Shown: positions 751-49,140, counted from the first letter of the stretch. The stretch: 49,389 nt of DNA from Sphaeroforma arctica JP610 (GCF_001186125.1 NW_014040195.1:12286-61674); one strand, 5' to 3'. A program made the numbers and translations. Notes: generated by a model not told the origin, from the sequence alone.

Positions 751-1219
751 TTAGAATCTCATCCTATGTATTTGCCGATATAGTACTAGATTATATCTCA
801 CCATGCTCGTCATATCCTACGGATCTGTTCTCCACCAGGTATTTGAGCGCATAGAGGTGATGGAAACCGGGTTGCTCAGGACTGGCGTTGGGGTACGGGG
901 TGGCCATGGTGGACAATTAGACAGGAACAAGGATTACAATCGAGTGACCCCTTCGCAAGAGATACCGAGCGACCTATTGGAGCTGTCCATGCCCAGGTGT
1001 GCTTGGCTGCTACAGCGTCTGTGTATTGTTTCTGATCTGCCTGAGGTATCCGTCACCGTGTACCACGTACCTACACAAGTTTGCGTGAGGTTTGTATAGG
1101 TTACTACACCGGTGTGTGGCATGTATCAAACTTCACGTCAGTGAAAGCCTGTGAGGCCTGGCGCTCAAAGTGAATTGTATCTGCTATATGGTTAGTGACG
1201 GGTGTTGTGTCAATGCCCT

Positions 1220-1800
1220 CCATTCGACTCGATTCTTATTTCAAAACCCTCTTGTCCTTTCTCATTTCTTTCTCATTCGACCCAATTCTTACACCAATAC
1301 CCTCTTGTCCTTTCTCATTTCTTTCCCATTCGATCCAATTCTTAAGCCAATACCCTCTTGTCCTTTCTCATTTCTTTCCCATTCGACCCAATTCTTACGC
1401 CAATACCTTCTTGTCCTTTCTCATTTCTTTCTCTTTCGACCCAATTCTTACGCCAATACCCGCTTGTCCTTTCCCATTTTATTCCCTCTCGATCCAGTTC
1501 TTACGCCAATACCCTCTTGTCCTTTCTCATTTCTTTCCCATTCAATCCAATTATTACGCCAGTGCCCTCTCTTATCCATTCCCATTTTCCCATTCGACCC
1601 AATTCTTACGCCAATACCCTCTTGTCCTTTCTCATTTCTTTCCCATTCGACCCAATTATTACGCCAGTAACCTCTTGTCCTTTCCCATTTTTTCCTTTCG
1701 ACCCAATTCTTGCGCCAATACCCTCTTGTCCTTTCCCATTTTTTTCCCATTCGACCCAATTCTTACGCCAATACCCTCTTGTCCTTTCTCATTTCTTTCT
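1220..1800. repeat. 53-bp minisatellite, about 11 copies
   Basis: Unit cattcgacccaattcttacgccaataccctcttgtcctttctcatttctttcc recurs at 1274, 1327, 1380 and onward (period 53). Confidence 0.95.
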
Positions 1801-1815
1801 CAATGCCTTGCACAG

Positions 1816-2227
1816 CACTCGCGTGGTGCGGATCATCCCAGACATATCAAAAAGCCATTCCTCGAACTCCATCCTAAACCAAAGTTCGGGTCAAGTTGGG
1901 GCTTCTTTCACTTCTGCTAAGCCGAATACCGGTGTGAGCCAGGATAAGCCTCGCGCAAACACCACTAACCCAGGCACAGCCAATTCGAGTGGCATTCGAA
2001 ATCTGCAATTCGGAGCGTCTACCACTACAGCCGACAGCCGGCGTGTGCCCATGAATGATACCAGCAACACCCGCAACAGTAGTAATAGAAGTAGTAGTAA
2101 TAGTAATAGTAATATTAATAGTGCGGATAATTACAACCACAACAATTTCGTAAATATGTATAGCCCCAAACCTCAAGAAGCCAAGTCGAAACAGGCGGCA
2201 CCCAACACGCCCTTGTTTATCAGGAGG
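1816..2227 (+). CDS. Probable internal exon, Ser/Asn-rich low-complexity protein of unknown identity
   Basis: Open frame (IIPDISKSHSSNSILNQ...KQAAPNTPLFIRR) between cag acceptor candidates (~1815, ~1842) and a gtatgt donor at 2228; no family recognised. Confidence 0.5.
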
Positions 2228-5094: not shown

Positions 5095-5324
5095 CGTATG
5101 TATGTATGTATGTATATGTGTGTATGTATGTATTTATATATATATTATATTTATTATAAATATATATATATATAAATATGTATGTGTCTGTGTTTGTGTC
5201 TGTGTCTGTGTCTGTCTGTGTCTGTGTCTGTCTGTGTATATATAGTATATATATATATATATATAGTATGCTCACGCGTGTACAACTGCATTGTTTAATT
5301 GATTCCTATTATGCCTACCGTCAG

Positions 5325-8019
5325 GATTCTGTGATTGAAGAACCGGTGAGCCATGCCGTGGGAGTTATAGCCGACTCCAAATCATACGAGGTCACAGTCC
5401 TGTCCACCAGACCGGACCTTGACGTTGACCCGCATCTACTGTCGTATGTATCATGTTTTCTCGTATGTAACATCTCCTTTCGTATGTATCATGTTTTCTC
5501 GTATATAACATCTACTGTCGTATGTATCATGTTTTCTCGTATATAACATCTCCTTTCGTATGTATCAAGTTTTCTCGTATATAACATCTCCTCTCGTATG
5601 TATCATGTTTTCTCGTATATAACATCTACTGTCGTATGTATCATGTTTTCTCGTATATAACATCTACTGTCGTATGTATCATGTTTCTCGTATATAACAT
5701 CTACTGTCGTATGTATCAAGTTTTCTCGTATATAACATCTCCTCTCGTATGTATCAAGTTTTCTCGTATATAACATCTCCTCTCGTATGTATCATGTTTT
5801 CTCGTATATAACATCTACTGTCGTATGTATCATGTTTTCTCGTATATAACATCTACTGTCGTATGTATCATGTTTTCTCGTATATAACATCTACTGTCGT
5901 ATGTATCATGTTTTCTCGTATATAACATCTCCTTTCGTATGTATCAAGTTTTCTCGTATATAACATCTCCTCTCGTATGTATCATGTTTTCTCGTATATA
6001 ACATCTACTGTCGTATGTATCATGTTTTCTCGTATATAACATCTACTGTCGTATGTATCATGTTTTCTCGTATATAACATCTACTGTCGTATGTATCATG
6101 TTTTCTCGTATATAACATCTACTGTCGTATGTATCATGTTTTCTCGTATGTAACATCTCCTCTCGTATGTAACGATCCTGTAATGGTTGACTATGGCCGA
6201 GTGGGATAATGGAGTGCAACAGCCCATTGAGCTTCCCTTGTCTCTTTTGAATATCTTATTTGCTCAGTGGCACCGGTCTGCAACGCAATTGCACGGCCTG
6301 ACGTCTTCTGAGAATTAAACATCGTTATACATCGCATTACTTTGCGTTGCAAGTATGTATGGCCTGTCGGGTTGTCTCGTCTTGAGGGGGAATGATCTAG
6401 CAGATTCCCACGCATACTATCTGCAGTGTCGCTCTCACTCTATTTATAACTTAATCTCTCCCTTGATACTTCTTCCAGTTCAGCATTTACGCGCATATGG
6501 TGGCTATGCTGCCATAGTGGACGTGTACCATAGTCATACCTGTCGGATTTTAAAGTGAACATGCACGTTCAAATCGTGTATACATACATATGTTTCTAAC
6601 TATCGGTAGACCTGCCCTAATACATAAACGGTCGCCGTATGGTATAGATGCCCCGTATTACCTGGCAAGTATCAAGTACCGGTTGCTGCCTATTATTGCT
6701 GAACTCTTTCTACATGCAACATGCGTCCCATGTAGAGATGTGGAGGTTGCCTCGCACATAGACACGACCACGGCAAAGCCCTCAGCGCTGATTACGTTCA
6801 TGCTGCAAGCGGTTACAGACATGTGGAACCTAGGCTTGCCTTCAGAAACCGTATGTATAAACCCAGTTAATGTGTGCAGTAAGTGGACCCGTATTTGAAT
6901 GTATGTGAATGTGTGTGAATTCTACCGATCAAGCGATAGCAGATATGTTTGCGATTTCAAAAACTAAACTCAGATTAGCGTATATGTGGTTGTGTGACTA
7001 AGGTGAGTAGACGTATTTTTAAGTGTGACTAAAGGATGTAATTATTTCGATGTATACATATACAAATTTATGACTACTTGTACAGTGCAATTATACAGTG
7101 TGTGTGGACAGTTATATGATAATAAAAGGTACTGTGGGAGTACTATTTATCGGTGCATATGCTGCGTATGCTGCGTATATCATAGTGATAACCTCTCGCA
7201 TTGAGTGCATATTCACACATATGAACCTGTTGTCAGACATCGAGTTGATCTGAATCAGTGACACATCGAAAGCGTATACGGCTCTTTCACTCAACCCTCA
7301 GCAACCACGTTCTAAAGAAAGTGTACCAGTCTTACTGCTGATCTGATTCTTCGACGCAATCCAACCTGTCTTACAGTGCTTGTGGCACCTCGAGGACCAT
7401 TTGCAGAACGTTTATTTCAAGAGCAAGGTACTGGCAGAGGTCATGGCCGATCTCAAGGCCCAGGGCCAACCCATCACAAAAGCCAGCTTAGCTACAGCCA
7501 TCGGGTGTGTCATATGTGGCATTAGGCACCATGTACATATTCACATATAAATATACATTTGTGTTATTTCGCTACAGCAACATATGCATGCTGGTGTACA
7601 AGTATTGTGGCAGTTACAGACATGCACTCCACAAGGTTATTCACCACATAACGTAGATATGCTTCCCCGCGAAAAAAAAAATTTACCCAGACCGAATTCT
7701 CACTGTATGTCAGTTTTTATGCGCACTCAACTACTACACTCCAGACCATACGGAATAAGACCCACTCACTGTATATACCGGCACACTCCATGTCACCTTC
7801 GGACGCAACCATATAGTCATGCATGATCCTATGCTTATCATTTATGCTGTTCTCTTATGTGCCTTCGTGGGTTCACATATGGCCGGTTGGTCAAATGATT
7901 TCGGTGCCTGATACTAATGAGACATAATCTGTCCCTCCAACCACAGAGTGGATGCGACTGATATCGCGCTTCTCCTCACAGTGATGGATACCTACATAAA
8001 TAATTCACCCGCTCGGTAG
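5325..8019 (+). CDS. FNIP: Folliculin-interacting protein (FNIP1/2-like), C-terminal part (exons 5325-5443, 6736-6850, 7377-7504, 7947-8019)
   Basis: In-phase spliced product DSVIEEPVSHAVGVIADSKSYEVTV...KPSALITFMLQAVTDMWNLGLPSETCLWHLEDHLQNVYFKSKVLAEVM...AIGVDATDIALLLTVMDTYINNSPAR* matches the FNIP C-terminal domain as recalled (LDEPIAEAVCIIAD; HLEDRLQELYFKSK; SDLPLL). Confidence 0.88.
5433..6170. repeat. 38-bp minisatellite, about 19 copies, starting inside an FNIP exon
   Basis: Unit catctactgtcgtatgtatcatgttttctcgtatataa at 5433, 5471, 5509 and onward. Confidence 0.96.
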
Positions 8020-8538: not shown

Positions 8539-11200
8539 TTAATGAAATAGTATTGTGATGAATGACACCAGTAACTCCTTCATCGGTGTAGCATAATTCT
8601 GTTGCGCCTGATTCAGGGTTTTACTGTAGAATATAAGGTAGTGTTTCTTCGAGTTCACCCATTGAAATAGCGCTCCCCGCAAACCGTAGTCACCAGCATC
8701 GGTTTCTAGATTCAGCGGAACGTAATCCACCGGGAAGTTCAGAGCTACTGTGTTCACGATCGCGTCCTTCATAGCCACCCAGGCTGCTGTATGTCTGTCT
8801 TCTAATCGGTCCCCGATTGGTTCGTTGGGTTTCAACTTACAGAATTCCCTTAACGGTGTCACAATGTGGGCGAAGTTCGGTAGATGTTCGTAAAGAAAAT
8901 TCGCAAGTCCTAGTGCCGAAGCAATGTCCTTGTAGCGTTGCGGCATCGGCCAATCTAACAACTTAGCTTGCTTTTCATGGTCGACATCGATTCCTTGGGC
9001 CGATACTTTCTTCTCGAGGATCATAATTTCTGCTATCGCAAAATGGCACTTCGCTGCATTTAGCTTGAAACTATGGTAAGTCAACCGTCGGATCACCTCT
9101 TTCGTAATACGTATGTGTTCCTCGAAGTCATCCCCTACTATCACGATGTCGTCTATGTATTGATGGACCGGCATCCGTCCAGAATCGTGCTGAGAGTTCT
9201 CTGAAACGGTTGAGTCAGCACATGGAGCCCAAAAGGTGCTCAGGTAAACGAGAATTGATAGCGATCATGCGTGAAGCTAAACAAATACTGGGAATCGAGA
9301 TGGATTGTGAGCCGGTGGTAAGCAGCCGAGATGTCTAACGTCGTGTAGCCTCGCTGTCAAAAGTGGGGACAGCTAACAACGGCAAATTCACTGTCGTAGG
9401 AGTAGTCCGGTTAACAATCACCTAGTCCTAGAACCATTTCTGCACCTGCTCCTCGACATATGGAAGCCATCCGTCCGACACAAAATTCTGAATAGATCGT
9501 CGCATACTCATCGCTTGGTCCCTCGTGACCGGAATAGCCACTTTACTACCTGCAAGGCGACAACGGGCGTTGTCGGCAATTGCCGCGTTATCATCGAGTT
9601 CTGACTGCAGGCGATCCCGTACCCCGGCAGGTTCCGTAGTATTTGGGGCCTGGCGACGTGGAAGAGGTGTCAATAACTCGTCTAGTTCCGTAGGATCAAT
9701 TGGTACCAGAGGGGATTGTATGCCTCCCAAGTATAAACCCAATCCAGGCATAATATCCAGACCTAATATCATATCAATACCCTCCGGTAAATTCATCAAC
9801 TCTAATGATCCCTGAGTAATCTCAGTCCCATATCGAATTGGTAAGATCTCCGTCGTGCCCAGGCGCGGGGTACGCACCGCCTTATCTGCCAAATATATAT
9901 ACGTCCCCGGTGGTGCTGGGGTGACGGGCCGGTTAAGAAGATCTGCGGATGCCGTTGAGATGCAACTTATGTTCGCCCCGGTATCAACTAGTGCCCGGAA
10001 CGTACGTCCGTTCAACTGTAACTGAATATAAACCCTATTATCTGGTTAATAAAATTGGCGCGGATGGCTAATACCCTACTCGAAGAGTCACTATACGTTA
10101 CAGTCAAATCTTCGTCCGACACCCTGATGTCCTATTGCTGTGATTCTGTTGACGACCAATAGTCCCTGTTCGGCTGTGAGGTTATCGACTCTGGTGTCCC
10201 GTACTCACTATGAAGGATAGGATTGATATAGACCTCTGTAGCATTCGGTAGTGGTGTGATGCTTCCCTCTTCCGAAACCATATTATTCTGCGGACCCCCC
10301 CCCCGACGCCGTGCTAGATGATCTGTCTGTTGTCGTCTGTGTTGTCCCCGACGACTGCAGTCCTGTGCCTCTCGCGGTCCTCTCGTCTGATCTATTGGGC
10401 GTCCCCTATTGCTCATGGTATCGGATTGGGAATGAATATTGTTCCGATAATTATGACAACGTGGGATATGTCGTAAGCCGGGAGGTGCCTGTGCCTGACA
10501 CCCGGAGCACACCGTGACCTGTGATGGTACCTGTGGTCTATGTTACCAAATCTCTTGTTGCCGCTGGGCAGTCTGCAGATTCGGACGACTATTCGTGGGT
10601 TCAGAACGTGACGTCTCACCCCCGTGCGGCCATCGATTCGCTAGACGAGCCGTTGTACGGAGCTGTGCTTCTTGTATATCCGGACTTAGTAATTGGAGCA
10701 ATGCATGTGTTTCCAAAACTACAACGTGCGTTCATATGTCCGTACCCCTAGACAATCCTATAGTAACTGTACAATACAGTGGTTAAGTAGACTCTGCTTG
10801 AAGTCTGCATCATTCTGACTACGTTCGTGCGCACGACGGTGGTTCTCCATTAGGTATGTCATCCGTTCCATGATGGGGACATTCGTCAGTTTGATGTGGC
10901 CTTTAGCTAGTTTCCGGAATGTCAGATCTACCGTTGCCTGAGTTTCATGTGCACAAATCTGGGTGATCTGCAACTCTGGTTTCCAATCAACCAATCTATT
11001 GTGGCTAGACTTTATATACTCTAGTGTCGACTGTTCGGCCTTAAAATGATTTAGTACATTGTAGAACCAGCGTAGACTCCTAATATATGTGCATTCTTCC
11101 ACGTTTCCAACAGTGCCCCCTTCGTATCCCTTTCTATGATATTGCTCAGGTTGTATCTGTTGGATGGCCACTCCGGCCAACTCCGAGGCTCCCTAGGTTC
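8539..11200 (-). mobile_element. Degenerate Ty3/Gypsy retrotransposon 1 (gag-like, protease, RT, partial RNase H; 3'-truncated, no integrase)
   Basis: Protease ALVDTGANISCIS (ORF 10015-9428); frameshifted RT with APFGL and YIDDIVI; RNase H LETDAGDYGLRGAL...YSKTLNQAQQNYATPMKELL, which then breaks off; stops and frameshifts throughout. The 5' boundary is approximate. Confidence 0.9.
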
Positions 11201-11222
11201 CTTCTTGCCCATTGGTCGCGAC

Positions 11223-12475
11223 TCATGTGTGGCGCGCAAGGTTTCTAATACTCCCCGTAGTGCTTCGGCTCTCATCGACGGTATGTACTTCGCTCTCAAC
11301 AGGTTGTTGTGTTGACGATGAAGTTATTTGTAGTTGTTCTGGGTTGCTCGACTGGTGCGTCACAGTTGGCTGGGCTTGTTGGCTAAGCATCACTTCCGTT
11401 GTCGATGTTGTCCTTGCGTCTGTTTGGAAATCACCATTCTCGATTTGGAGGAATGTACTATTGTTCGTAGTGTCAGGTGTTGCGATAGCGGTTGTACATT
11501 TGTTGTCATCCCAGACAAAGAATTCATCTTCGAAAATATAGACGTCTCGGCTTTGTATTGTACGCTTGGTCAGAAATGAGTATATACGATACGAGTCCGG
11601 TGTTGTGTCCAAGGGTTGCGCAAGAAGAATGCCATCCAGTGCTTTGTCGTCGAGTTTGCCGTCTGGATCATGGTTCATGCGCACCGTGCACAATGGTTGA
11701 TGGATCACTTTCATCTGAATCTAATGCGATGAGATACGTGGTGAGCTCATCATACGACATGGCCATCATAGCGGGTGTCTTTTAAGGTAATCTTAACAGT
11801 CTGATTATCGTCGTTTACAGCCTGCCGTAGAATAGCGCATAGGCTGTTGTTAGACTTCGTACCTCCGGCGTTTTTGAATTTCACATATGCCGTGTTGAGA
11901 CGACTGATAAGGCTGGCGTAAGATTCGTTCCGTTCTTGCGTGATGCGGTTCAGGTTTCCTTCTAATGTCTGGATATCATCTTCGGCTAGGGCTACTAACT
12001 TGCGTTTCAGTGCGGCAAAAGCTTCCCACGGCTTATCAATGAATTGGCTGATCTCCGTCTGCAGCAGTGGAGATAAGGTGCGGTCGATAATCCGATAAGC
12101 CTCAGTGATTTCCTTGGGTGTCCATCGGTTGCCTCTAGACGGGGTCGGATCGGTCAATATTGTTGGGATTCCTTCACAATTCACGGATAGAATTGTCTGG
12201 GTTTTCCAAGGAAGCCAGTCAACCTTCGATTCGAGAATAGGGTGGTCTTAATATCCTTAGAGTTCACAGTAGGCATATTGATAGCGCGAGATCAGAGTGA
12301 CCTGATAAGTTGATAGAGTGCAATGTAGTATACTTTAAATAAAGTGCAAATGTATTTATTTATTTTTGACCTCACCTTTGGTTTTATACCCAAGGTGTTT
12401 GTGCTAGTGTTCAGCCGCTTGGGCTGGCCAGGGTAAAATTTCATATGGCCAGTATGAGAAACCTTATGCGTAACA
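11223..12475 (-). mobile_element. Internally deleted Ty1/Copia element (putative LTR, gag, post-integrase SH3 region)
   Basis: Gag-like DWLPWK...KPWEAFAALKRK...QERNESYASLISRL (12184-11750) directly followed by the Copia post-integrase motif KLDDKALDGILL...YRIY...SRDVYIFED (11714-11223); protease, integrase core and RT are absent. Confidence 0.82.
12303..12475 (-). repeat. Putative short 5' LTR of the Copia element
   Basis: On the minus strand it begins TGTTAC (12475), contains TATAAAA and AATAAA, and ends near ...TATCA just upstream of the gag ATG; no second copy is present to confirm it. Confidence 0.45.
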
Positions 12476-12936
12476 CTTTAACACTTCGATGCTATTCTAT
12501 TTCAACTTCTCTGCAACTAAATCTCACGCTGATCTCATAATGCCTTTCCGCATAGGTTGTGACTCACATAGAACCGCAGCTATTATAGAGTGTTGCGGAT
12601 GACAGGCTTAATCAACTCTCGGAATCGGTTGAGAAACTTATCTGCTCTCGGGAATCGGTTACGTAATAACTCAGCTCTTGTGAGTAATTTAAGCAACTTG
12701 ATTAGCTCTCGGGAGTGAGCTAACTCTGAAGACTTAGCTCGCGGGAGTGGGCTAACTCTGATGACTTCCATAAATCAAAGATGGTATCTTGCTGTAAAAT
12801 CTGGCATGAGACCTGTAGTCTCTCAGTGGATAACCCCATTTTTCGTAAGTTGGTGTTCCTGACATCTATGCACCCTGGATATGTTTCATACCTTAGGTAT
12901 AAAACCAAAGGTGAGGAAAGAAATAAATACATACAT
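12350..12936. repeat. Inverted repeat pair (12350-12396 / 12890-12936) with a 21-bp perfect core
   Basis: cctcacctttggttttatacc (12370-12390) is the exact reverse complement of ggtataaaaccaaaggtgagg (12896-12916); imperfect similarity extends on both sides. Confidence 0.9.
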
Positions 12937-13104
12937 TACATTTACCCAATTGGGATGACAATCGTCGGAAACCAGTTAAGACTGGGTATGTTATCCAGAC
13001 GCATGAATCACCCAAGATTATAATACCAACCACTATCCGAGGAACAACGCACCGAAAGGCCTCGACCATGGACTTTACAAGGGGTAATAAACACCCCCGT
13101 AAAC

Positions 13105-14322
13105 GTGTTCACGAAGTCGAATTTAATCGCTTCGATCGCACAGCACTACATCAACCCGCAGAGGATTTTCACTCTGACGAGGAGACCGAACTTAACAAAT
13201 CGGTCGACGATTAAAATGGAAATCGCCCACGATGTGCATCATGCTGAGGATGTATCATATTTTGCTAATATGATTGCGATTAAGCAAAAGCGCATCGATC
13301 AGCTACTTCAGGCCCAACGTGGACAAGACCACAGGGATAACCAGAAGTACAAACGACAGAACAGTCGACTTAAGTCGAACTGGGATGCCAACAATAGGCA
13401 GGTCGAGTTTATGAACAACCATGACCTCGACACGCTAACCGGTACGCTTAACGCGTTTACGGTCATGCTGCAGACGAATGATATCGCTCCCCAGCAATGG
13501 ATCTCTGCTTTAATGCAAACGTCTGACCCTACAGGTACAAGTTATTTGATCCTGCAGCGACACCAACATGAGCTAGACACTTGTCGTGACTGGCCAGCTG
13601 TGTGTTGGTTGGTTACATCCTTGTTAAGTAAGGACATGCGTAGCCCAGGACTCAGTTCAATTTTATCTGAACCAGTTGAAAACACGCCCATTCAGAGTTA
13701 TATTCTGAAGCTAGATGCTGACCTGAAACGTCCAGATATAACAAAGGACAAGGCACAGCGATGGTACGAGTTCCTGGTTATGCACGTGTTCTGTAAGAAC
13801 ATAGGGAATATCGACCGTGAGAGCCTGTACACCGAGTTGCAACGTAAACACGCGACTGAGGCTCGAGACAAGGGACATGAAACAAAGTTTCATCTATCCC
13901 GACTTACGTGGGAACAGTTTTATGATACTGTATTCACCCTTTTCCCCGCACACCGAGTAACATCGAAGGGAAAAGTGGCTGTTAAGAAGCCGCGGGAGCA
14001 CACCGATCACGGATATGTATCCAGGCAGACCTCAAACGAGAGACCCAAACATACACGTGCTCGCGACTCCACTCTATCCACGCGACCCAATAAACGGGCA
14101 CGCGCGGAGGCGAAGGACAAGGAACCTCCATTTAAGGAGATTAAGAATTGTGCCGACGCACAGTGTGGGTATGACATATACTAATTGACCCCTGACGGTT
14201 ATTGGAATGGCAGGCATGCATCCACCTGTACACACTTTCTTATTAAGTGCGACAAGTGTGAGAAGACCAATGGCTATCACACTAAGTCTTGTGACAAAAA
14301 GCCCAACATTAAGTTGGAGTGA
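13105..14322 (+). pseudogene. Gypsy-2 gag
   Basis: ORF 13105-14184 continues in frame past a TAA into CDKCEKTNGYHTKSC (14248-14292, zinc-knuckle-like) up to TGA 14320-14322; the true start is probably somewhat upstream, behind a frameshift. Confidence 0.75.
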
Positions 14323-16160
14323 AGGTACTACCAGGTACAATCGTTACACAGACAATACAACGACTCTTTAGATGAGCGTGTAATAATCCCTGTATATTGC
14401 AATGGAAATAAAATCCTTGCGTTGATTGATCGTGGTTCAGAAATTTCATGTATATCCGATCGCTTTGCATTAATGAAAGATATCGAAAGGAGAACACAAA
14501 CAACTCACCTCATTTTAGCTAATGATAAAACTGCTAAGTGTGATACCCTGGCCACGGATGTTAAAATCTCCCTGGCCGATGATAGGAATATCACTACCCA
14601 AGCTGTGATAGTTAAGATGCCACAGAAGTACGACTTAATAGTCGGAATGAGTGACTTACTCACTCTAGGTATAACCTTAACTGGTTTACCAAATAACATA
14701 AATCCATTAAAGATCAATCAGACGATAACTGTCGGAAACCATATAAGCCCCCGTCAGATACAGTCAAGCCATTAATACCTGACTTTGCGAACAAAATCAT
14801 GGATCTGATTCTAGTTAATAAGAAGATAAAGATCACAGATTGGGCAAAATTCCGTTTTAACGACGGGTATGTCAGCCTTGACTTAACCAAGGTGGACCTT
14901 ACACAGTTAAAGTGTCCCTCAAGGAACTATGTATCCTGGAGACACGAGGCTGTGGTAAAAGAACAAGTTGAGAAATGGCTAGCAGATGGAGTGATAGAAA
15001 TTAACTATCAACAGACGCCAGTTAACTTGGCACTGCTAGCCATAGACCAACATCACTCTGACGGATCATTTAAGAAAGTCAAAGTATGTTTAGATATGAG
15101 TCCGATAAATAAATTATTGCCGACTCATAGCTTTCACTTACCTCGTATTAACGAGCTACTGCGAAGGATGGAAGGTGCTACAATATTTACAACTATAGAC
15201 CTTACACAAGGATACCATCAAATGCAGGTATATGAACCACATCGTAAATACTTTAGTTTTACGTGGAAAGGTAAACAATACAGGTTCAGAGGTGCACCTT
15301 TCGGGTTACACTCTTTACCAGCATTCTTCCAACAAGTAATGGAGCAAATGTTTGCAGACATGCCTAACGTGCAAGTCTATATAGATGACATAGTCATCTT
15401 TTCTAAACTAAGGGCGAACACGCCGCATTAGTCAGACGAGTCCTTAAGAGACTCAATGAGCAAAACTTCAAGACTAACGAGAAGAAATGCCACTTCGCAA
15501 TGGGCGAAATACAGCTCTTAGGCTACCATATATCTGGGGAAGGTATTAAGATCGACCTCGGTAAGGTAGAACACCTGTTAGATTGGCGAACACCAACTAC
15601 AGGAAGAGATGTTAACAGCATGTGTGGGTTTGTAAACTTCTTTTCAGATGGAGTACCACACTGAGCTGACTACCTTAAACCTTTTGAACACTTAAGATGT
15701 CATAAAGGCAAACTAGGAGACTTGTGGACTAAAGAGTGTGATGACGCATTTAAAGCGCTCAAACACGCAGTCCAGCAAGCCCCTGTTGTACAAGGGCCAG
15801 TCGATGTCGTGCCGTTTGAAATAGCAGCGGACGCCTCCGACTTAGCCTTAGGAGGAGTATTATATCAGGTTATAGATAACAAACCTAGATATATACAATT
15901 CTTTAGTCGAGCAATGAATGCTTCACAGTTGAATTATCCAACTGTTAAACAAGAGCTATTAGCCATAATGGCAGCTCTAACACACTTCCGAGATTACTTA
16001 TACGGAACAGCATTTACGCTGATGTGTGATCAGAAATCTCTTCAATATATGAAAGAGATGAACCCCGACTCACAATTACTGAGTCGCTGAAATATATAAC
16101 CATTTACCGGATATGTTATCACGCTTCGTACCGGACTTTAATAAATCCGGACGTGAGTTA
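14323..16160 (+). pseudogene. Gypsy-2 pol: aspartic protease, reverse transcriptase, RNase H
   Basis: ILALIDRGSEISCIS (the D-T/S-G site reads DRG); IFTTIDLTQGYHQ, APFGL, VYIDDIVIFS; EIAADASDLALGGVL, NYPTVKQELLAI, CDQKSL, NHLPDMLSR. Frameshifts near 14780, 15420 and 16095. Confidence 0.93.
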
Positions 16161-16166
16161 CTAGCC

Positions 16167-16570
16167 ACTGACTGGAAATGTAATCCCAGGTGGTTTGAAC
16201 TGACTCAAAAGATATTTGGGCCACATACCATAGATATGTTTGCTGCACATCATAATGCACAACTATCGAATTACAGGACTTTAAATCATCCTTTGGGAGA
16301 CGCCTTTCAAATAGACCTCTCCAAACATAATGCGTGGGCTAATCCACCATGGCAGTTAATTGCCCAGCTATTAAATTATGTTCGTATACATAAAGCTACC
16401 ATCACGTTGTGTTGCCCATTACGGAGTAAAGATCCATGGCTCAATAAATTAATAAGCATAATACAATGCGAGCCAATATATTTAGATAGGAAAGTATATA
16501 TTTTCCTATATCAGGGTACCCGAGCCGTCCAGAAGACACCCTGGAGACATACTATTATATGTCGTATAGG
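16167..16570 (+). CDS. DNA N6-adenine methyltransferase domain (phage Dam / DIRS1 MT type) within Gypsy-2 pol
   Basis: TDWKCNPRWF...FGPHTIDMFAAHHNAQL...DAFQIDL...AWANPPWQLIAQLL...ATITLCCP...PW follows the DIRS-MT consensus (DW-L---F; GPH-IDLFA---N-QL; DAF; YANPPW-LI). Catalytic NPPW at 16341-16352; no stop in ORF 16113-17222. Confidence 0.88.
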
Positions 16571-17029
16571 TCCCATTGGAACAACCAAATGGACCCCTTC
16601 TGAGACCTTCCTTAACAAGGTCAAAGAATCAGAGATTCCACTCTCTACTAAATTGAACGTTGAGCAGTTTAAAGGCAACACAGCACTTGAAGTCTGTGCA
16701 CAAGAAATACAATCTACTAATGACACTACTGTTAAGAAGCGTCAGTCTCTAGCTAGGACTCTGTTTAATATCATAAAGTCCAAGCCCGAGGTCTTTCAAC
16801 CCCTATTTCTAAAGGGATTAATGAAAGACAATTCTGAAGCGTATACACATATAATGCGACTATCTATTAAGTCAGGTGTATCTAACGCACATGAGCGCAC
16901 TTATGACACTCATGCGAAAGCCGGACAGGAGTCTGGAAACACTACAGACTTAGAGACCACGCAAGTGGATTTTCAACACTCTACCTTTATTCTGGAAGAG
17001 CAGAATGATGAAAACATTCTTGCTTGGCT

Positions 17030-18441
17030 GAAGCAACATCATAAGCTGAAGCACCAGAACGTAGTAGAAGCACTTAAAGATGCTAAGCGACATGGGATCG
17101 CGCACCCTAAGCTGGCAACTTTAGTTGACAGAGTATATCAGTCATGTACAAACTGTGATCTCAATCAGATCAAGCGCTATGGTTTCGCACCGCTTAAGAG
17201 TGTGACTGAAGATGTTCCATAGCGCAGGGTCATCATTGATCTGGTTGACCTGCCCACGTCCGAGCACACAGGCGACCGATACGTATGCCACTTCTTTGAT
17301 GTGGCGTCACGGTTTAATTTGCTCTATCCATTAAAGGATAAGAATACGCAGATCGTGGCAGAAGTATGTTGCCAAGTCTTTGCTGACCACGGGTGGCCGG
17401 GTATTATGTGCACTGATAACGGTAGTGAGTTCTGCGATGACGTAATGGAATCGCTAGTACTCGTATCAGGCATATGCCATAAGAGAGGTGTGCCATATAA
17501 CCCGCAAACGAAAGGCGCGAATGAAACGCGCCATAGAAGACTTAAGTTTTTCTTGCGTACTGCATTAAGGATGATGCAGATGATTGGCCGTACCATATTA
17601 AGTGGGTACAAACACAGATGAACGAGTGTGCTGATCCGGTTACAGGAACTACACCCGGCCACTATTTTCGTAGCAGATATAGTGAGTTGCAAATTCCTTT
17701 TAACAAGGACGAACCTGATCACCATGAGTTACCATGGTTAGAGAAGGTACAACGTATTTATAACGTTGTATATCCTTGCTTGCGAGAAATACGCAATATA
17801 GCTTTATTAAAAAGGCAGAAGCGTTGGAACACTACCAAGAAGATAGCAGAGTATCAGGTTGGTGACAGAGTTAACATTCGCCAACGTAATTCCGATGCTA
17901 CTGTATTAACATCTAAATGGATAGGTCCCTATATAATCTCTGTAGCAGACATTAAAAGTGGAACGTACGAGGTAAATAACCCCGATGGTTCTAGTGCGCT
18001 TAATATAGGCACAAGTCGTATTCCGACTACAGAGATTATACTCGCAAGAAGACATGATTCTAATGCCCCTCTTGATCGTTCTGAATTTAAAGACATTATA
18101 TGGAGAACGGATAAGAGAGGCTATACATACTATCGTACACGCTTTATAGACGGTACAATAGGCGAGTTGACTTCAGATGCTTTCGATAATCAAGACTATT
18201 TAAAAGCCTTTAATCGAAAATGACGTAAAAGCCCGCATAAGTCACAAGCTGAAAAAGATTGCATGTTTCCATCGTCTGAAGGAACGGAACTTAAAACTTA
18301 TCCGCCAACAGCATTTATCCCGAGCCTTAATGCTCATCCTTCATATGTGCTTAAGACACTGAAGAGTAAGAAACGTCCAGTCGACCACCACGGACCTACG
18401 GGACTTAAGCCCAAAACTCACAGGGTAACCGAGAACACTTA
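17030..18441 (+). pseudogene. Gypsy-2 integrase (HHCC finger, DDE core, GPY/F module, chromo-like tail)
   Basis: H-x4-H...CTNC (17037-17156); IIDLVD (D at 17238), TDNGSEF, PYNPQTKGANE; YQVGDRV...KWIGPY. Stops at 17220 and 18221 and a frameshift near 17560; the frame stays open after 18223 until ~18441. Confidence 0.9.
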
Positions 18442-18573: not shown

Positions 18574-19395
18574 TGTGTAATAAGCCGGGCCTCCACATTA
18601 GACTCTATGTATAAACGTACACTTAAGCAGTACGCAAATTATAAACGTACTCTTAATAGTACGAGGCACTTAAGTTTCCTAAATGTACTCTTAATAGTAC
18701 GAGGAACTTAAGTCTCTTAAATGTGCTCTTAATAGCACGAGGAACTTAAGTTTCCTAAAATGGTTTTTAATGGTTTTATTAATTATTACCTTTTCCATTT
18801 AACATATCAGATATTTGGATGAGGCCATTAAAAGGCCTCAGTAAAATACCAAACATAAAAGAGTTGGTCTTGTTCTATTAAAAGAGCTATATTTACATTC
18901 CAATTTTATCTATATCTGAATACTTCGGTAGCGAGATGGCTCAACCGAATATAGGTTTCTAGGGACTATTAACATTACCTAGTTGATCCTCCGATAAGCT
19001 AACCAGATGTGCCAGTCTGATGAAGGCTAAGTCGGTATTTCTTGATAGTGGCAAGTTATTTGTTAAGACAATAACTAAAGACGTCAAGAGTATTTAATTT
19101 TTTCTTCTTTCTAAAGATAGGATTTTATGAGTCTCTCGGATTCGCCCCAGAATAGAGCGACAACGAAACACTAAATAAAATCCCTTCGGCGGAAACAGTA
19201 CTGAGAGGATTATATATAGGCAATGTCTCAGCCTCACGATCCCTCAGAGTATTGCTGTTTTCACGAGGCAAACCTAACTTTATTAAACGTCTCATTTCGT
19301 TTATTTATATCGATATTTACACGATATTTAGAATTTACCTACGCGTTTATTTATTCTAAGGCATTAGTATCGCCTTTATTAGACCGAATCTCACA
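18574..19395 (+). repeat. Putative 3' LTR of Gypsy-2
   Basis: Starts TGTG/TGTAAT right after the purine-rich aaagctgggggc; has 38-bp internal tandem repeats (~18640-18758), a TATATATA (~19211) and ATTAAA; ends ...CTCACA where the hAT reading frame resumes. No matching 5' LTR in the window, so the end is inferred. Confidence 0.55.
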
Positions 19396-21668
19396 ATGCA
19401 AAGAATTGGTATCAAACACTCAAAACTGAAAAGAAACGTGTTGGTGACGAGGGAGTGAAGCACAAGCAGCTAAAGATACCCCTTTCTTAGAGAAGAAGAC
19501 TGACAAGGTAGTGTCACAATTCTCGCATAGAAAAACTGAGGCAGACATGCAGTGGGCTACCATGACCTGTGTAAACGATGTACCTTTTGCACTCGGTCAT
19601 AAACCGCAATTCCGTGACTGGTTTCATTTAGCGAAGCAAGTTCCGGACACCTTAAAGTCTAGATACAATCCGCCTGCACCGGCAACTGTTCGCAAGTACT
19701 TACCCATCATTAAGGCAGGTATAAGAGCTAATTCACTCCGACGTTGGCATGTGGCTTGTTTCTACTACAATGGTCCCTTTACCGCAGTAGAAAGCGATCT
19801 TTGGAAGGATGCGAATGGTACTAACTGGCTAGGTTCGCATGTTCATTTCAACGACCCAGAAACCTTTGTGATGCAATCTGTATTCATCGGATTACTAGCT
19901 GTACGAGGTGGACACTCAGGCGAAAATTTAGTAAAAATGGCAACGAGACATTTTAAATGACTGGAAGTTGTTGGATCCTGTCCCTAAAGCTTCTTTCCAG
20001 GCGGACAAGAGGTCGGATGGAAAGTTAGATCTGAAACAGATCTTTTTCAGCGGTACCCCGGATAATGCAGCGAATGTCATGAAAGCCATGAAAGACACTG
20101 CTCTCTACACACTTGGTTGTCTAGCACATAAGGTACAGCTATGCCTAAAGAACGCAGTTGGTGGTGATATCAAAACAGCAAGTGATCAGGTTAGACTGTT
20201 GTGGGGAGAAGGTCTACACAATGAAAATGAAGATCTCCAAATTGATATTCTGGAGCGGAATATAAATATGAATACGGATCTTGCTGATCTTGCATCCACA
20301 ATGGAAGCTTACGATATCACGGCGGTAGAGGCATTAATAACCAACATTGCGACGAGAGCTGTATATTTCAATAAGAGTACTGTAGCTAGTGACAAACTAG
20401 CTTTAGCCCAGCAAAAAAAAAACGGTCACGAGGTGAGGAAGGCTAGGACCAATGGATCAACACGATGGTTAGGGCTGTATCAGATGGCTAAAAGAGATGA
20501 TCTAATTGATCCTGAAGTAAACACAATTTCGGAGGATCCACTGGAAAACCGTACATCTGGGTTGTGGTATGGGAGAGATGGCAAAAATAGGAAAAAGAAG
20601 TGCGAATCGCCAATAATTGTGAAGACACTACGACGACAGTTTATTGGAGTTTTGCGGCCACTTATGGTACTACAAATTGTGATTCAAACAGATCGCAATG
20701 TTTAGCTGACGATTGATTGTTTATTCGCGATGGCTATCGACCCTGACGTTCAATCCGGCCCAGACACAGCCTCGGCGATATGCAAAGAGTCGGATCTGGA
20801 GAAACCTATTCGCAATATGCGCGTTCGTATAAGAGAATTGATGAGGGGTTGCTTTCCATCGATCCCAGAACCTCCAATGCTAGCAAACTACTACCTACAT
20901 TGCTTGCACAAGGATATGTCAAGCGTAGAACTCGAAGACGATGACCTAGACAAGGTTATGAACATTGCTAGAAAAACTGTTAAGGAATGGGCTTTACAGT
21001 TATTGCGTAACAAGCACAAGAATAAAACGAGTATAGAACAGAGCGATAATGAACCGCCTAGTACTTCGCTTACGAGCAAAACAACAACTTCAGTACAGGG
21101 CAGTTCGAAAACCAGTTCGGTATCAAAGTCATCTTTGGATTGGCTAGAGATTATGGCGGAAGACACAGAAGCAAGTCCAGCCAGTAAGCGTCGCCGACTT
21201 TTGCAAACTAAGAGAGCACAAAGGAATGTTGTGGTGGACACCTCTTCTGAGACACCTTTAGAGGAAACTATGCACCGGGGGATGGAGAACAGTGTAGATA
21301 GGGAACTAAATACATGGGAAAATCTGCCAGTTCAGCTGTCCATCACCTTAAGCGAAGGCAAGTTGATGAATCCTACTTTGCAGGCAACAGAGTACTGGTT
21401 GAAATTTCGGAACACATTGCCCATACTGTACATGGTAGCTTGTATATCCTTTTCATTCAAGCCTACATCATGGCAATCCGAGAGCGTCTTCCCATTATCC
21501 GGCAATCTCCTCGATGATAGTCGGAAAGCGTCCTTCAAAGGAAGTACATTTGAAAATATGACCTTCGTCAAGGGCAATGCCAGTCTGATGCCCCCTCTTT
21601 CTGAACTGGTAGATAGTTTGTCGGAAAGCACTCAGACGAAGGAAAATGCAGCAACAAATACTAACTAG
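19396..21668 (+). pseudogene. hAT-superfamily DNA transposase, 5'-truncated and disrupted
   Basis: ESDLWKD (first D), GTPDNAANV (second D), CLAHKVQL (CxxH), STRW, and the C-terminal dimerisation domain EYWLK...LPILY...PTSWQSESVF-LSG; frameshift near 19960, TAG at 20703; no BED finger or TIRs found. Confidence 0.9.
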
Positions 21669-29000: not shown

Positions 29001-32000
29001 ACAATACAGAACACCAATCCATCGAAGTACACGTCCACACTGTTTCTCAGACCTAAATACATCCAGGCGCTCTTGGTGTCGCACAGTCGCTGCCAGAATT
29101 GCCATACTCGAAGATTCTGGGCCACATGGCAGTACTATAATACACACAGACACACACACAACACAGACATAAATATATACATACATACATACATACACAC
29201 ACACACATGTATATATGTACATATAGATACACACACACACACATATACGACACAAAAAGTATAGGGCTATGAAAACTCACCTCTCTTGCAGGGGGGTAGT
29301 CCTCGAGGATTTCCAGATCCAAAGGCCCAGCTCCCATGCGCGCCAAGTCCAAAATGGAATCCCTAGGGGTACCAGGGCCGGCCGCTGCACCCTCAATCTC
29401 GTACTTGTGCTAGGTAGTGATAGAAAGTATCAAAGTGTACAAGGTTAAGGTAGGGATAAGGAATATGTAGACAATGCCTTGTTCAGTACGCTCTCAATCT
29501 TGTGCTTGTGCCGAGTGAAGACAAAGATTGGCACAGTGCGAGGTGTTATGGTAAGCAAGTGCCAGTCAATTTGATAAAATTGATAACAAAAATGCCACGG
29601 TGTGAGAGGCTATGGCAAAAATGGCTAAAGCACAAGTCCTTGGGCAATGATTGGACTATACAGGGTTCACATACTAGGTTGAGAGTGCACAAAAGGGGCG
29701 GATGCATTCCGTACGAACAGACAAAGGTAAGTGCAGCAGACATGTAATTCTTGCTATCTACCTTCTTCGTCACGTTGCAAGGTTTCATGGTACAGACGCG
29801 GGGACAGGTGTAAAGCCCAAAGACACCCCTTGCCCGAATGATACATAGAAACCTCTGTACATAGCCACATACCCGATCCCAATGCGAATACACCAGACAC
29901 CTGAAGGACTTCGCTTCAACTTGGCCACATACACCATCGCATGTAACATAAACATGGATAAACACACTCGACTCTCCCCACACCTACAGGCCCTATCCCC
30001 CCCCACACCTTCAGCTTGATGTCCTTCAGCATCGCATGGTCGTTGATCTTCAGGAAGTAGTCGATCAGATCAGTCGCATCGAACGGCTGGTCAAACCACG
30101 GGTGCACCGCCGACTTCACTACACGGTCCGCCTCGTACATCCAGAACGTCGCCTTCGGAATGTGCAGCACCACGTGGCCCTTATCTGCCAGGGTTTGCGC
30201 CACGTGCGCGATGGTTGCGCTCTTGCCTGTGCCTCGCATACCGTTGACCAGCACGCCGAATCTGCGGGCGCGAGGGTGTACGGGTGTGTAAATGTGTTGG
30301 GGCCGATGTGTAAATTATAGAGCATAGGTTGCGATGGTGACAGTGCAAATACAGTACACATTATCACTGGACGATACATATGAAGGTCGAAGAGAGAGCT
30401 CCTGAGGTACGATAGTCACAAACACCGAGGCCATTGCGTGCCGGTAACGTGTCGCACATGCCATTTGTGAGAACGCCAAATCTGTTTGGGGCGAATAAAT
30501 GTGATACATTTTATCACACACACACACACACACATATATATATTATGTATACCTAGATATATATATACACACAAACATACGCACATACATACATACATAC
30601 ATACAAACACATATACATACACACACACACACACACATATACCTTGGGTAGCATCTTCACACTCAATACATATGAATCACAACGTGACAACGACTCACTT
30701 CTTATCTCGGTTCTCCGTTCGCTCGTGATTGCGGATGTGCGCCAAGACCTCCAAGGCCGGTTGGCGGATCATGAGAGAGTTCTTACCGAACAGCTTGAAC
30801 TAAAAACAGGAGCGGAAAATCAAAAAATCAGAAATGGTGGTCAGAAATGCGGTAGTCGGGTGCAGATTTGGGGGTGAATTCAATCCGACAAATAGAACTC
30901 CATATCGGATAAGGCGTGTGCGGGATACGCTTTGATATGATATATGTTTAACGCATGCCAGTCCTACTCAACGACAGACAAAACTGCGGTTGCCGCCAAC
31001 CCAATCCGCAATACGACAGATGCTGTCCGATATCGCAGTATTGTTCGTTCCATAGGCCAGTGTCATGTTCAGCGTATCTCTACGGATTATTTTGACATGT
31101 AGTAATATTGTACAGACGCCGTATGTTACACACTAGCAGCACAATAGTACGCATCGGGGCCAACATGCCCTTCAGCCACATCACATTTTGCTCAGCCCAC
31201 TTGCCACATATGAGAATACATATAAATGTTCATTTATGCATACGTACACACACACACATATACATATACATACATACACACACACACAATCTATATAAAT
31301 ATATAAACAGTGAATCTGTATTACAAAAAAATAAATAAATATAGGTATAAACACACACACACACATAATATATATATATATAGACAGATACCTATTTTTG
31401 TAAATATGAATATACATTCGTATCGATTGCTAGTAGTGCTGCACCAGCCAGCTGGTCTTGCATGTCCTTAGACCAGACCATCTTGGCCTCAACGTCGCAT
31501 ATATATATATACATGTATATCAAAACATAAAGATACATACATACACATACACATACAACTAACACTGTACATTCATATTGATTCATTCATACCTAGCACA
31601 GCCGTGCAACACACCTGATCCTTCATGCCCTTTGGCCAGACCACATCTTCCTTCGCCTTCTTGCCTCGCTTCTCATCATCCTCGCTGCTCCACTCGTAGA
31701 ACTGACCTATTTGTCCCGCACTGTGGTACTTGAACGCTAGAGGTGTCGTCAGGGGCACATTGCCAATCTCAATGGGTTCGTTAGAGGCCCTGTGTATGGA
31801 TGATGTATCAAAGTGGCAAAGCACATCAATAGACGAGAAAGGATGAACGATAACCATCTCGTGCGAATACGGCGACACTCAAAACATTACACATGTCATG
31901 TCGTGATATTCTACTAGGTACATGTCTATATTCTATCATAACCTTTTAGATACATCTGTTTCCACTGCAAGTAACCGCGCAAGCACACACAGTATCAATG

Positions 32001-35958: not shown

Positions 35959-36305
35959 TATATACTAATATATATACACACACACACACACNNNNNNNNN
36001 NNNNNNNNNNNNNNNNNNNNNNNNNNNNNNNNNNNNNNNNNNNNNNNNNNNNNNNNNNNNNNNNNNNNNNNNNNNNNNNNNNNNNNNNNNNNNNNNNNNN
36101 NNNNNNNNNNNNNNNNNNNNNNNNNNNNNNNNNNNNNNNNNNNNNNNNNNNNNNNNNNNNNNNNNNNNNNNNNNNNNNNNNNNNNNNNNNNNNNNNNNNN
36201 NNNNNNNNNNNNNNNNNNNNNNNNNNNNNNNNNNNNNNNNNNNNNNNNNNNNNNNNNNNNNNNGGTCCGACTCTAGAGGATCCCACTATATATACAATTA
36301 TATAT

Positions 36306-36914: not shown

Positions 36915-37400
36915 AGTGCTGATCAAAAACCCGAGCTCTAATGTATGGGATATTGTGACAATGCCGTTATGTGGACACTGGTGAAGGCACACCTGGATAG
37001 GACGTGTAGTAGTAGTTCTTACGCATATACGTGTCTGCAGCACCCACTCTCTACTAGCTTTAATTAAACGAGCACACGCAACTGTGAATAAATGAAGTAT
37101 TTACTGTGGTGCTTGCCAAATAGGCGCTCTTATTTATTTATTCTCAGAAATCACTCAATATGTAGTCTCAATTATGTACATATTGCCTTCTTGCGTGGAG
37201 GTCGGAGAAAAGTTCGGTACCTGTTCGGATGTCCCACGCGAATCATTCATTTGCCGAGGCGTCTATCAGACCTCATCAAGAGTAACTCACAGGTTCAACA
37301 CAGCTCAGGGTTATGTATTTATGTTTATATAAACATATCACTTGATATTGTATACAGTACATACATGCATATAATACATAGGTCGCGGAGGGTATAGTGT

Positions 37401-47749: not shown

Positions 47750-48500
47750 AATGCGGAATATATACTTACTTTTTCGATAGTGCTTGATATACATTTTATA
47801 TGATAGTAGACTACTCAATTTACACTGTATAAAGTAATAGAATACTCAATATACACTTAATATCTCGATCGAATCTATAGCATAGACGTAATGTATCAAT
47901 AGAGATTCTAATATACACTTAATATATGACAAAAAATACTTAATATGCACTTAATATACCAATCGAATATTCTGATACACTTAATATAGCAACAGGATAC
48001 TTAATATACACTAAATATTGCAATGTAACACCTATTTTACACTTTATAGATCGATCGAATACTTGATATACATTTAATATATCAATAGAGTGCTTAATAT
48101 ACATTTAATATGGCAATATAATATGACTATTATACACTTAATAGATCAATCGAATACTTCATATACACTTAATAGATCAATCGAATACTTCATATACATT
48201 TAATATAGCAATCGAATACCTCATATACACTTATTAGATCAATCGAATACTTCATATACACTTAATATAGCAATCGAATACTTCATATACACTTAATATA
48301 GCAATCGAATACTTCATATACACTTTATATATCAATAGAATACTTCATATACACTGCATATATCAACGGGATAATTAATATACACTAAATATAGCAATAG
48401 AATATAGCTATTATACACTTAATAGTTCAATCGAATACTTGGTATACACTTAATATAGCAGTCGAATACTGCATATACACTTGAATTATCACTAGAATAC
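47750..48500. repeat. 31-bp AT-rich minisatellite, degenerate at the edges
   Basis: Unit aatcgaatacttcatatacacttaatatagc at 48241, 48272 and onward. Confidence 0.92.
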
Positions 48501-49140
48501 TGAAAATGATCATACGGCTATCGCGCACAGCTCTATCTCTTTCCAGGAAGCAATCGATGCAACCCCAAGTAGCCCAGCCACCAAACGGGACAGTTCGGTC
48601 CCAATCGTCGAGGCAACAAGTTAATTTAGTGCGCAAACCAATGAAATCCAGTAGCGGAGTGAGTAGCGTAAAGCAAAACCCTGGTAAGTCAACAACTACC
48701 TACTTTATATCCACCCGTTTGTATTCTTTCTATCGCTACTGTGTACGGTGTGTAATAACTAACAAACGAACCTTATAACCATCCCTTTTTGCGTTTGTAT
48801 GTTTTCTTCAATCTGTGTCCGAGTGTGTTTGCCATTGCCCTCTGATTTGAAATTGCTCTTCACTCAGTGCCACAAGTCTAATGGGACTGCCTTATATTTG
48901 ATATATGGGCCGTGGTTGTTCTGCGATACATATTTGTAGACCGCAGAGCTCAATACACATCCGCTATGCGCAAAGGGTTTCCTGACTGGGTAACTATAGG
49001 TTTAAAATTCGACCGACTGCTCGATCTTGGACACAATACGCTCATAAAGCTGAAAGGCCTAATCGCATCTCCCGTGTTGTATATATGCGCACCTACTGCG
49101 ATGTTAAATACAATGCACAAGGCGTTAACCTTACTTAATC

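What the first reader, a model, noticed from the sequence alone, without database searches (positions are those of the whole stretch)
16113..17222. Ty3/Gypsy LTR retrotransposon carrying a DIRS/phage-type DNA N6-adenine methyltransferase between RNase H and a DDE integrase
Seen: one uninterrupted ORF runs from the end of RNase H (PDMLSR) through a complete methyltransferase-like domain (DW, GPHTIDMFA, DAF, NPPW at 16341) into the integrase HHCC finger, so the domain is part of pol and not a separate insertion with its own ends. Known: this MT domain follows RNase H in DIRS1-like elements, which integrate with a tyrosine recombinase; canonical Gypsy pol is PR-RT-RH-INT with no MT. Inference: this is a Gypsy lineage that captured a 6mA writer, possibly by recombination with a DIRS element at the RH boundary, and could methylate its own cDNA or insertion site, for example to mimic the transcription-associated 6mA of many unicellular eukaryotes or to evade host silencing. 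I do not know of a described family with this architecture, but I cannot search to confirm that.
Basis: partly seen in the sequence, partly recalled or inferred. Interest (0 to 1): 0.92.

Follow-up and report, generated by a model that had tools for sequence, protein, structure and literature searches.

The report
Decayed gypsy retrotransposon carrying adenine methylase
This is a broken copy of an abundant gypsy-type jumping gene of a single-celled relative of animals whose polyprotein carries a phage-like domain predicted to methylate adenine; the design is real but was described in this same group of organisms in a 2026 preprint.

Summary
A Dam-like methyltransferase domain (16164-16574, NPPW at 16341) lies in frame between the end of RNase H and the integrase zinc finger. 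Two intact relatives carry the reverse transcriptase, RNase H, Dam and DDE integrase in one ORF. The domain is conserved (65-73% identity, against 25-33% in the next linker) and variants shared among copies are mostly synonymous. This copy is dead: stops, frameshifts, a deletion at the RNase H end, no 5' LTR. A neighbouring host gene is nearly identical to Sphaeroforma arctica, and the RT and methyltransferase trees place the element with Abeoforma and S. arctica sequences. It belongs to the 'Ichthyosporean DAM-LTR lineage' of bioRxiv 10.64898/2026.05.21.726589, so it is not new; the scan also noted this kind of element in other genomes. Methylating activity is unproven: the preprint's E. coli test was negative. 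One addition: that preprint says the lineage lacks chromodomains, but the integrase tail here is predicted to fold as a divergent chromodomain without a full aromatic cage.

The parts
13024..14322 (+). gag-like frame (first ATG 13216; internal stop at 14182; Cys/His-rich end; TGA at 14320, after which the protease frame continues in phase)
   Evidence: No Pfam gag match; gag is inferred from position.
14371..14712 (+). Retroviral-type aspartic protease
   Evidence: Pfam gag-asp_proteas E 4e-5; tblastn to P0002 residues 20-133.
14709..15661 (+). Reverse transcriptase (YIDD), in two frames; frame changes near 14712 and 15407, stop at 15662
   Evidence: Pfam RVT_1 E 8e-17 and 2e-4.
15665..16124 (+). 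Ty3/Gypsy-type RNase H; stop at 16088 and about 47 nt missing before its last motif (NHLPDMLSR)
   Evidence: Pfam RT_RNaseH_2 E 1e-30. Contigs of other copies leave the window sequence at 16089-16092.
16164..16574 (+). Dam-like N6-adenine methyltransferase domain (DMFA motif, DAF, NPPW at 16341)
16575..17039 (+). Poorly conserved linker
   Evidence: 25-33% identity among family members.
17040..17156 (+). Integrase HHCC zinc finger
   Evidence: Pattern match; Integrase_H2C2 weakly in P0001 and P0002.
17223..17570 (+). DDE integrase core (D 17238, D 17415, E 17523; D-35-E); in-frame stop just before it at 17220, frame change near 17568
   Evidence: Pfam rve E 7e-9.
17843..18050 (+). Integrase C-terminal SH3-like (GPY/F) domain
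   Evidence: Model residues 1-69 match SH3/Tudor-type barrels, among them MLV and foamy virus integrase C-terminal domains. Ty3 7q5b also matches the model.
18062..18223 (+). Predicted divergent chromodomain, first and last aromatic-cage positions lost
   Evidence: Pfam Chromo does not match.
18574..19200 (+). Likely 3' LTR after a G-rich tract; right end not determined (at least 19200)
   Evidence: 10 contigs with unrelated upstream sequence begin at 18575 in run X5, and cover continues to the end of the stretch laid. No second copy in the window.
12349..12937 (.). About 590-bp stretch bounded by 48-bp inverted repeats, standing where the element's 5' part should be
   Evidence: Self-BLAST, 90% match between the arms. 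Contigs of other copies go on with different, mutually alike sequence before 12941.

Best explanation
This is a decayed copy of a multi-copy Ty3/Gypsy LTR retrotransposon family of a Sphaeroforma genome whose pol carries a conserved Dam-like domain between RNase H and integrase, a domain that in active copies likely methylates adenine in the element's newly made DNA so that the new insertion would look like the host's 6mA-marked, transcribed chromatin. Shown: domain order, one continuous ORF in two intact relatives, conservation, many related copies, kinship with Abeoforma and S. arctica sequences, and the breaks in this copy. Inferred: the domain is made as part of Pol and packaged with RT and integrase; it binds SAM through the DxFA region and uses NPPW; host AMT1 would maintain the mark after integration; the divergent chromodomain would help choose the insertion site. 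I put the identity at about 0.95 and the cDNA-methylation mechanism at about 0.5.
For: P0001 (1376 aa) and P0002 (1400 aa) have RT, RNase H, Dam and rve in this order without a stop; P0002 also has the protease. Identity of the domain among window, P0001 and P0002 is 65-73%, similar to RT (61% between P0001 and P0002) and far above the linker (25-33%). Of 20 listed differences inside the domain, those shared by only part of the copies are 9 synonymous to 4 non-synonymous (27% synonymous expected, p=0.0016); those private to this copy are 1 to 6, as expected of neutral decay. 1073 proteins match the domain at E<=0.001. NPP[W/F/Y] is in 133 of 160 aligned segments. In the RT tree (58 rows) the window groups with P0001/P0002 (0.976) and then with the Abeoforma element (0.992); all 14 integrase-bearing rows plus the window stand apart from 43 rows without integrase (0.962). 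The methyltransferase clade includes four Abeoforma proteins and one S. arctica protein. The host helicase is 178/178 and 270/276 identical to S. arctica SARC_05600. The preprint reports more 6mA and more expression on DAM-LTRs than on other LTRs in S. arctica and A. whisleri.
Against: No activity was shown: the preprint's E. coli assay was negative. P0002, an intact ORF, has CPPW, and 27 of 160 segments lack NPP[W/F/Y]. The Pfam Dam score is below the curated cut-off. The internal region shows no ApT excess (observed/expected 1.00). Support for the 17-row methyltransferase clade is moderate (SH-aLRT 83). The private-versus-shared contrast alone is not significant (Fisher p=0.057), and only differences above 10% share were listed. 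The 6mA-expression link in the preprint is a correlation and could reflect insertion into already marked chromatin.
Confidence: 0.8

Rival explanations
1. Same element, but the domain does not write 6mA on the cDNA. It is kept as a nucleic-acid or SAM-binding module, or it modifies the element's RNA, and the 6mA on genomic copies comes from host AMT1.
For: Negative E. coli assay. CPPW in intact P0002 while the rest of the domain stays conserved. 2 of 30 relatives also match PCIF1_WW, a family I recall as belonging to an RNA cap methyltransferase. DIRS elements keep the domain in hosts without AMT1 or 6mA.
Against: NPP[W/F/Y] is kept in 133 of 160 segments, including the window and P0001. The best library matches are DNA adenine methyltransferases.
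Confidence: 0.4
2. A one-off: a DIRS fragment nested in a gypsy copy, or an assembly chimera.
For: This copy is broken right at the RNase H end, and the window is a nest of elements.
Against: Two intact ORFs have the same order. 18 of the 151 proteins P0001-P0151 have the domain and an integrase core in one chain. One 695-nt contig of run X16 runs from the RNase H tail through the domain into the linker with 16 differences, and contigs in runs X10 and X11 span 16103-16642.
Confidence: 0.01
3. It is a DIRS-type element and the integrase belongs to something else.
For: RT-RNase H-methyltransferase is the DIRS pol order (PMC3266345).
Against: A protease, a D-35-E integrase and an LTR-like end are present. 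The RT groups away from the 43 integrase-less rows. No tyrosine recombinase match in any ORF of 80 aa or more within 12.7-18.2 kb.
Confidence: 0.01

Closest known systems
Ichthyosporean DAM-LTR lineage (Fernandez-Moreno et al., bioRxiv 10.64898/2026.05.21.726589; whole main text read; figures and supplements not seen)
   Same: Ty3/Gypsy organisation with a Dam domain, reported from Sphaeroforma arctica, Abeoforma whisleri and Pirum gemmata. Here the host is Sphaeroforma and the nearest named relatives are Abeoforma and S. arctica proteins.
   Different: The preprint says the lineage lacks chromodomains; here a divergent chromodomain fold is predicted at the integrase end. The main text does not give the domain order for this lineage, and I could not match this family to its listed families.
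DIRS1-like retrotransposons (PMC3266345, passages read)
   Same: Methyltransferase domain directly after RT and RNase H; homologous domain.
   Different: DIRS1-like elements use a tyrosine recombinase and inverted terminal repeats. This one has a protease, a DDE integrase and an LTR-like end.
Chromoviruses with type II chromodomains (PMC6317226, passages read)
   Same: Chromodomain after the integrase C-terminal domain, lacking the first and last aromatic-cage residues.
   Different: No Pfam Chromo match; placement among chromovirus clades not tested; ordinary chromoviruses have no Dam domain.
KnitGypsy-Dnmt3 (PMC5890265, passages read)
   Same: A DNA methyltransferase inside the Pol of a Gypsy element.
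   Different: A cytosine methyltransferase, unrelated to Dam, in a charophyte alga.

Membership tests
Ty3/Gypsy LTR retrotransposon | Order protease-RT-RNase H-integrase | tested here: met
Ty3/Gypsy LTR retrotransposon | HHCC finger and D-D-35-E integrase | tested here: met
   rve E 7e-9.
Ty3/Gypsy LTR retrotransposon | RT and RNase H of Ty3/Gypsy type | tested here: met
   A profile of the relatives hits Ty3 Gag-Pol first in the PDB (E 1e-167). The RT tree separates them from DIRS-like rows; no named Gypsy references were in that tree.
Ty3/Gypsy LTR retrotransposon | Two LTRs, primer site and target-site duplication | tested here: inconclusive
   Only a likely 3' LTR; the 5' end is replaced in this copy.
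DAM-LTR, ichthyosporean lineage | Dam (PF05869) domain within an LTR-type pol | tested here: met
   E 6.6e-6 for the domain alone; P0001 E 7.4e-6.
DAM-LTR, ichthyosporean lineage | Ichthyosporean host | tested here: met
   Host helicase 448 of 454 aligned residues identical to S. arctica.
DAM-LTR, ichthyosporean lineage | Groups with Abeoforma and Sphaeroforma sequences in DAM and RT trees | tested here: met
   RT 0.992; methyltransferase 0.94 for 18 rows in FastTree and SH-aLRT 83 for 17 rows; names.
DAM-LTR, ichthyosporean lineage | No chromodomain (as the preprint describes it) | tested here: inconclusive
   No Pfam Chromo match, which fits the preprint's profile screen. Fold and language-model searches point to a divergent chromodomain here, and a profile finds one in Abeoforma P0006, so the description may need revising rather than the membership.
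N6-adenine DNA methyltransferase (Dam-like) | Asn-Pro-Pro-aromatic motif | tested here: met
   NPPW at 16341; P0002 has CPPW.
N6-adenine DNA methyltransferase (Dam-like) | Methyltransferase fold | tested here: inconclusive
   The single-sequence model was unusable (pLDDT 41); no fold search was run on this domain.
N6-adenine DNA methyltransferase (Dam-like) | SAM-dependent adenine methylation | not testable with these tools
   Preprint: negative in E. coli.
DIRS1-like retrotransposon | Tyrosine recombinase in place of a DDE integrase | tested here: not met
   DDE integrase present; no recombinase match in the element's ORFs.
Chromovirus | Chromodomain at the integrase C-terminus | tested here: inconclusive
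   Fold and ESM evidence for; sequence-profile test not above shuffles for this family.
Chromovirus | RT falls within the chromovirus clade | not tested
   No reference chromovirus set was available.

The most novel reading that the evidence does not exclude
The ichthyosporean DAM-LTRs are not chromodomain-free. They end in a divergent chromodomain, eroded to a cage-less form in this Sphaeroforma family, so each element carries both a 6mA writer and a chromatin reader. They may share a single Dam capture with other RNase H-Dam-integrase-chromodomain elements, which would lower the published count of independent captures. The fold alone I put at about 0.75; a shared single capture is neither shown nor rejected (AU p=0.28).
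Probability: 0.35. Interest if true: 0.45.

Novelty: already known. Interest (0 to 1): 0.27.

Why it matters
Retrotransposons that carry their own adenine methyltransferase may exploit a host mark of active chromatin, which is an open question. But the architecture, the host group and the hypothesis are already in a 2026 preprint, and this copy is dead. What this work adds is modest: independent confirmation, signs of purifying selection on the domain in this family, two intact ORFs as a natural NPPW/CPPW pair for an activity test, and a probable correction that the lineage has a divergent chromodomain.

Tried and rejected
No whole genome is held for this window, so copies could not be counted and flanks could not be read. 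The homologue search at near lengths found nothing; the search at longer lengths found P0001 and P0002. A single-sequence fold of the 379-aa ORF was unusable (pLDDT 41). PDB sequence searches with the domain and with a 30-row profile (best E 0.9) found no meaningful hit. The 41-row profile was dominated by RT and integrase. A metagenome scan with P0002 found no relative among 39 pattern matches, so a proper dN/dS on intact ORFs was not possible. No RNA holder on record was listed; this says nothing about expression. Contig depths are not copy numbers. A chromodomain profile did not score the window family above shuffles (13, 7 and 15 of 200 shuffles reached the real score), and hhalign gave 0.6% with a 4-sequence profile against 72.7% with a 10-sequence one. 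A bootstrap IQ-TREE run timed out and gave topology only. FastTree put 15 integrase-bearing rows in one clade with the window (0.977), but the IQ-TREE quick tree put P0022, P0029 and P0125 among DIRS-like rows, so deep relations are unresolved. The ESM Atlas search with the domain returned eukaryotic clusters, one set with Dam on 11% of members: a lead only. No tRNA in the window. Look-ups of earlier findings by sequence and by place were empty. Six paper searches listed no earlier description of Dam in non-DIRS LTR elements and no title reporting a chromodomain in this lineage; most listed papers were seen as listings only, and Repbase, GyDB and subscription journals were not searchable.

Full report
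Observation. Pfam Dam matches residues 31-94 at E 3.3e-5, and E 6.6e-6 when the domain is scanned alone; both scores lie just under the curated cut-off. PHROG 111, a phage DNA methyltransferase family, matches at E 1.8e-4. The domain finds 1073 proteins at E<=0.001 among 1.84 billion. Of 30 of those scanned, 29 match Dam, many above the cut-off.

The element. Around the domain lie a gag-like frame, a protease, RT, RNase H, an HHCC finger, a D-D-35-E integrase core, an SH3-like C-terminal domain and a likely 3' LTR from about 18574. The copy is dead. It has stops at 14182, 15662, 16088 and 17220, frame changes near 14712, 15407, 16090 and 17568, and about 47 nt less than the intact relative at the RNase H end. 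No 5' LTR is in the window; a 590-bp stretch with inverted ends stands there.

Relatives. P0001 and P0002 are uninterrupted pol ORFs with RT, RNase H, Dam and integrase in that order; P0002 also has a clear protease. Identity in the methyltransferase is 73% and 65% to the window and 68% between them. The linker behind it is 29%, 25% and 33%, and RT is 61% between P0001 and P0002. Public runs hold many diverged copies: 55,703 contig pieces of run X1 lay on the 7-kb stretch, and all 30 bins had cover in three of four runs, 29 in the fourth. Contigs bridge the RNase H tail, the domain and the linker. Of 26 listed differences, 20 fall inside the domain. The 13 shared by only part of the copies are 9 synonymous to 4 non-synonymous, against 27% synonymous expected (p=0.0016). 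The 7 private to this copy are 1 to 6. This fits selection in the family and neutral decay of this copy, but the sample is small and limited to differences above 10% share.

Host and lineage. A DEAD-box helicase at 37401-38912 is 178/178 and 270/276 identical to Sphaeroforma arctica SARC_05600 and 62-69% identical to the next hit. The host is S. arctica or a very close relative. Among the 22 relatives looked up, the organism-named ones are four Abeoforma whisleri proteins and one S. arctica protein. In the RT tree the window joins P0001/P0002, then a 9-row group with the Abeoforma element (0.992), and all integrase-bearing rows stand apart from 43 DIRS-like rows (10 near-duplicate cluster members left out). 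The methyltransferase trees give the same group with moderate support (150 of 160 and 60 rows). 'DIRS-like' here means RT or RNase H plus methyltransferase with no integrase; their recombinase genes were not seen.

What is known. A search found bioRxiv 10.64898/2026.05.21.726589, whose whole main text I read. It reports Dam domains in Ty3/Gypsy elements, at least four transfers from DIRS elements, and an ichthyosporean lineage in Pirum, Abeoforma and S. arctica that 'lacks chromodomains'. It finds more 6mA and more expression on these elements than on other LTRs in S. arctica and A. whisleri. It finds no added 6mA when the domains are expressed in dam-deficient E. coli. It proposes that the enzyme marks reverse-transcription intermediates and that host AMT1 maintains the mark. 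The DIRS background is in PMC3266345 (passages), and 6mA on transcribed genes of ichthyosporeans in PMC12695648 (passages). The finding is therefore a member of a described lineage. The scan's own notes list 23 findings with the same words in at least 3 genomes; I saw these after reading the preprint.

Mechanism. The most likely reading is that the domain is translated as part of Pol, travels in the particle with RT and integrase, and methylates adenine in the new DNA, so the insertion starts with a mark that this host uses on active genes. Anatomy and conservation are shown; catalysis, substrate and benefit are inferred. Against it stand the negative E. coli test, the CPPW motif in intact P0002, 27 of 160 segments without NPP[W/F/Y] and the lack of any ApT excess. 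A binding role, or an RNA substrate, remains a serious rival.

A possible correction. Behind the SH3-like domain lies a segment of about 50 residues at the place where chromoviruses carry their chromodomain. The ESM Atlas returned Chromo clusters first for the P0002 segment (score 0.91, 21 of 30 hits in that set; shuffled proteins reach 0.9 in 4 to 10 of 100). An AlphaFold model of window 17843-18220 from 13 sequences (mean pLDDT 78) matches the HP1 chromodomain over 49 residues at 1.9 A (Z 6.6), Chp1 (Z 6.4), Polycomb (Z 6.2) and the Chp2 chromoshadow domain (Z 6.7). Foldseek gives HP1/CBX chromodomains at 1.5-1.9 A, probability 1.00 but E 0.14-0.23. A profile from four canonical chromodomains finds the Abeoforma element P0006 at 19.6 bits, but it does not score the window family above shuffles. 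Z under 8 can be a common arrangement, and the alignment used for folding held relatives with clearer chromodomains. In my alignment the first and last aromatic-cage positions are lost in this family (cage positions recalled from HP1), as in type II chromodomains (PMC6317226, passages). I put the fold at about 0.75.

Verdict. Real, conserved and well explained; already known at the level of architecture, lineage and host group. The interest lies in the untested activity and in the chromodomain detail.

Noticed in passing
window 14320-14322: The gag-like frame ends in TGA and the protease frame continues in phase. Whether this is a family-wide read-through stop or damage in this copy was not determined.
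   Followed up: partly
window 8539-10045, - strand: Fragment of a second gypsy-type element (protease, RT, part of RNase H), 21-38% identical to the Dam-bearing family. Its frame ends inside RNase H, so whether it had the domain cannot be told.
   Followed up: partly
window 10758-12247, - strand: Likely Copia-type fragments (SH3_retrovirus E 9e-7).
   Followed up: no
window 19448-21668, + strand: Broken hAT transposase directly behind the 3' LTR (Dimer_Tnp_hAT E 7e-6).
   Followed up: no
window 12349-12937: MITE-like stretch with 48-bp inverted ends, itself repeated in the runs.
   Followed up: partly
P0038, P0042 (not in the window): Polyproteins with the order protease, endonuclease/exonuclease/phosphatase, Dam, RT, RNase H, integrase finger: a different and unusual arrangement. 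Hosts unnamed.
   Followed up: no
P0017, P0011 (not in the window): S. arctica SARC_09892 is sister to another Dam-LTR pol and distinct from the window's family, so S. arctica seems to hold at least one more such family.
   Followed up: partly
P0002 (not in the window): Intact pol with CPPW in place of NPPW; 3 of 160 segments have CPPW.
   Followed up: partly
window 29916-30314 (-) and 37398-38915 (+): Host genes: an exon of mitochondrial ribosomal protein DAP3 and a two-exon DEAD-box helicase.
   Followed up: partly
window 36264-36285: Next to a run of N lies a short stretch that looks like a cloning-vector polylinker (recalled, not tested; seen).
   Followed up: no
window 1167-1852, 5319-6293, 47783-48531, 49101-49359: Minisatellite arrays with periods of 53, 38, 31 and 37 bp.
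   Followed up: no
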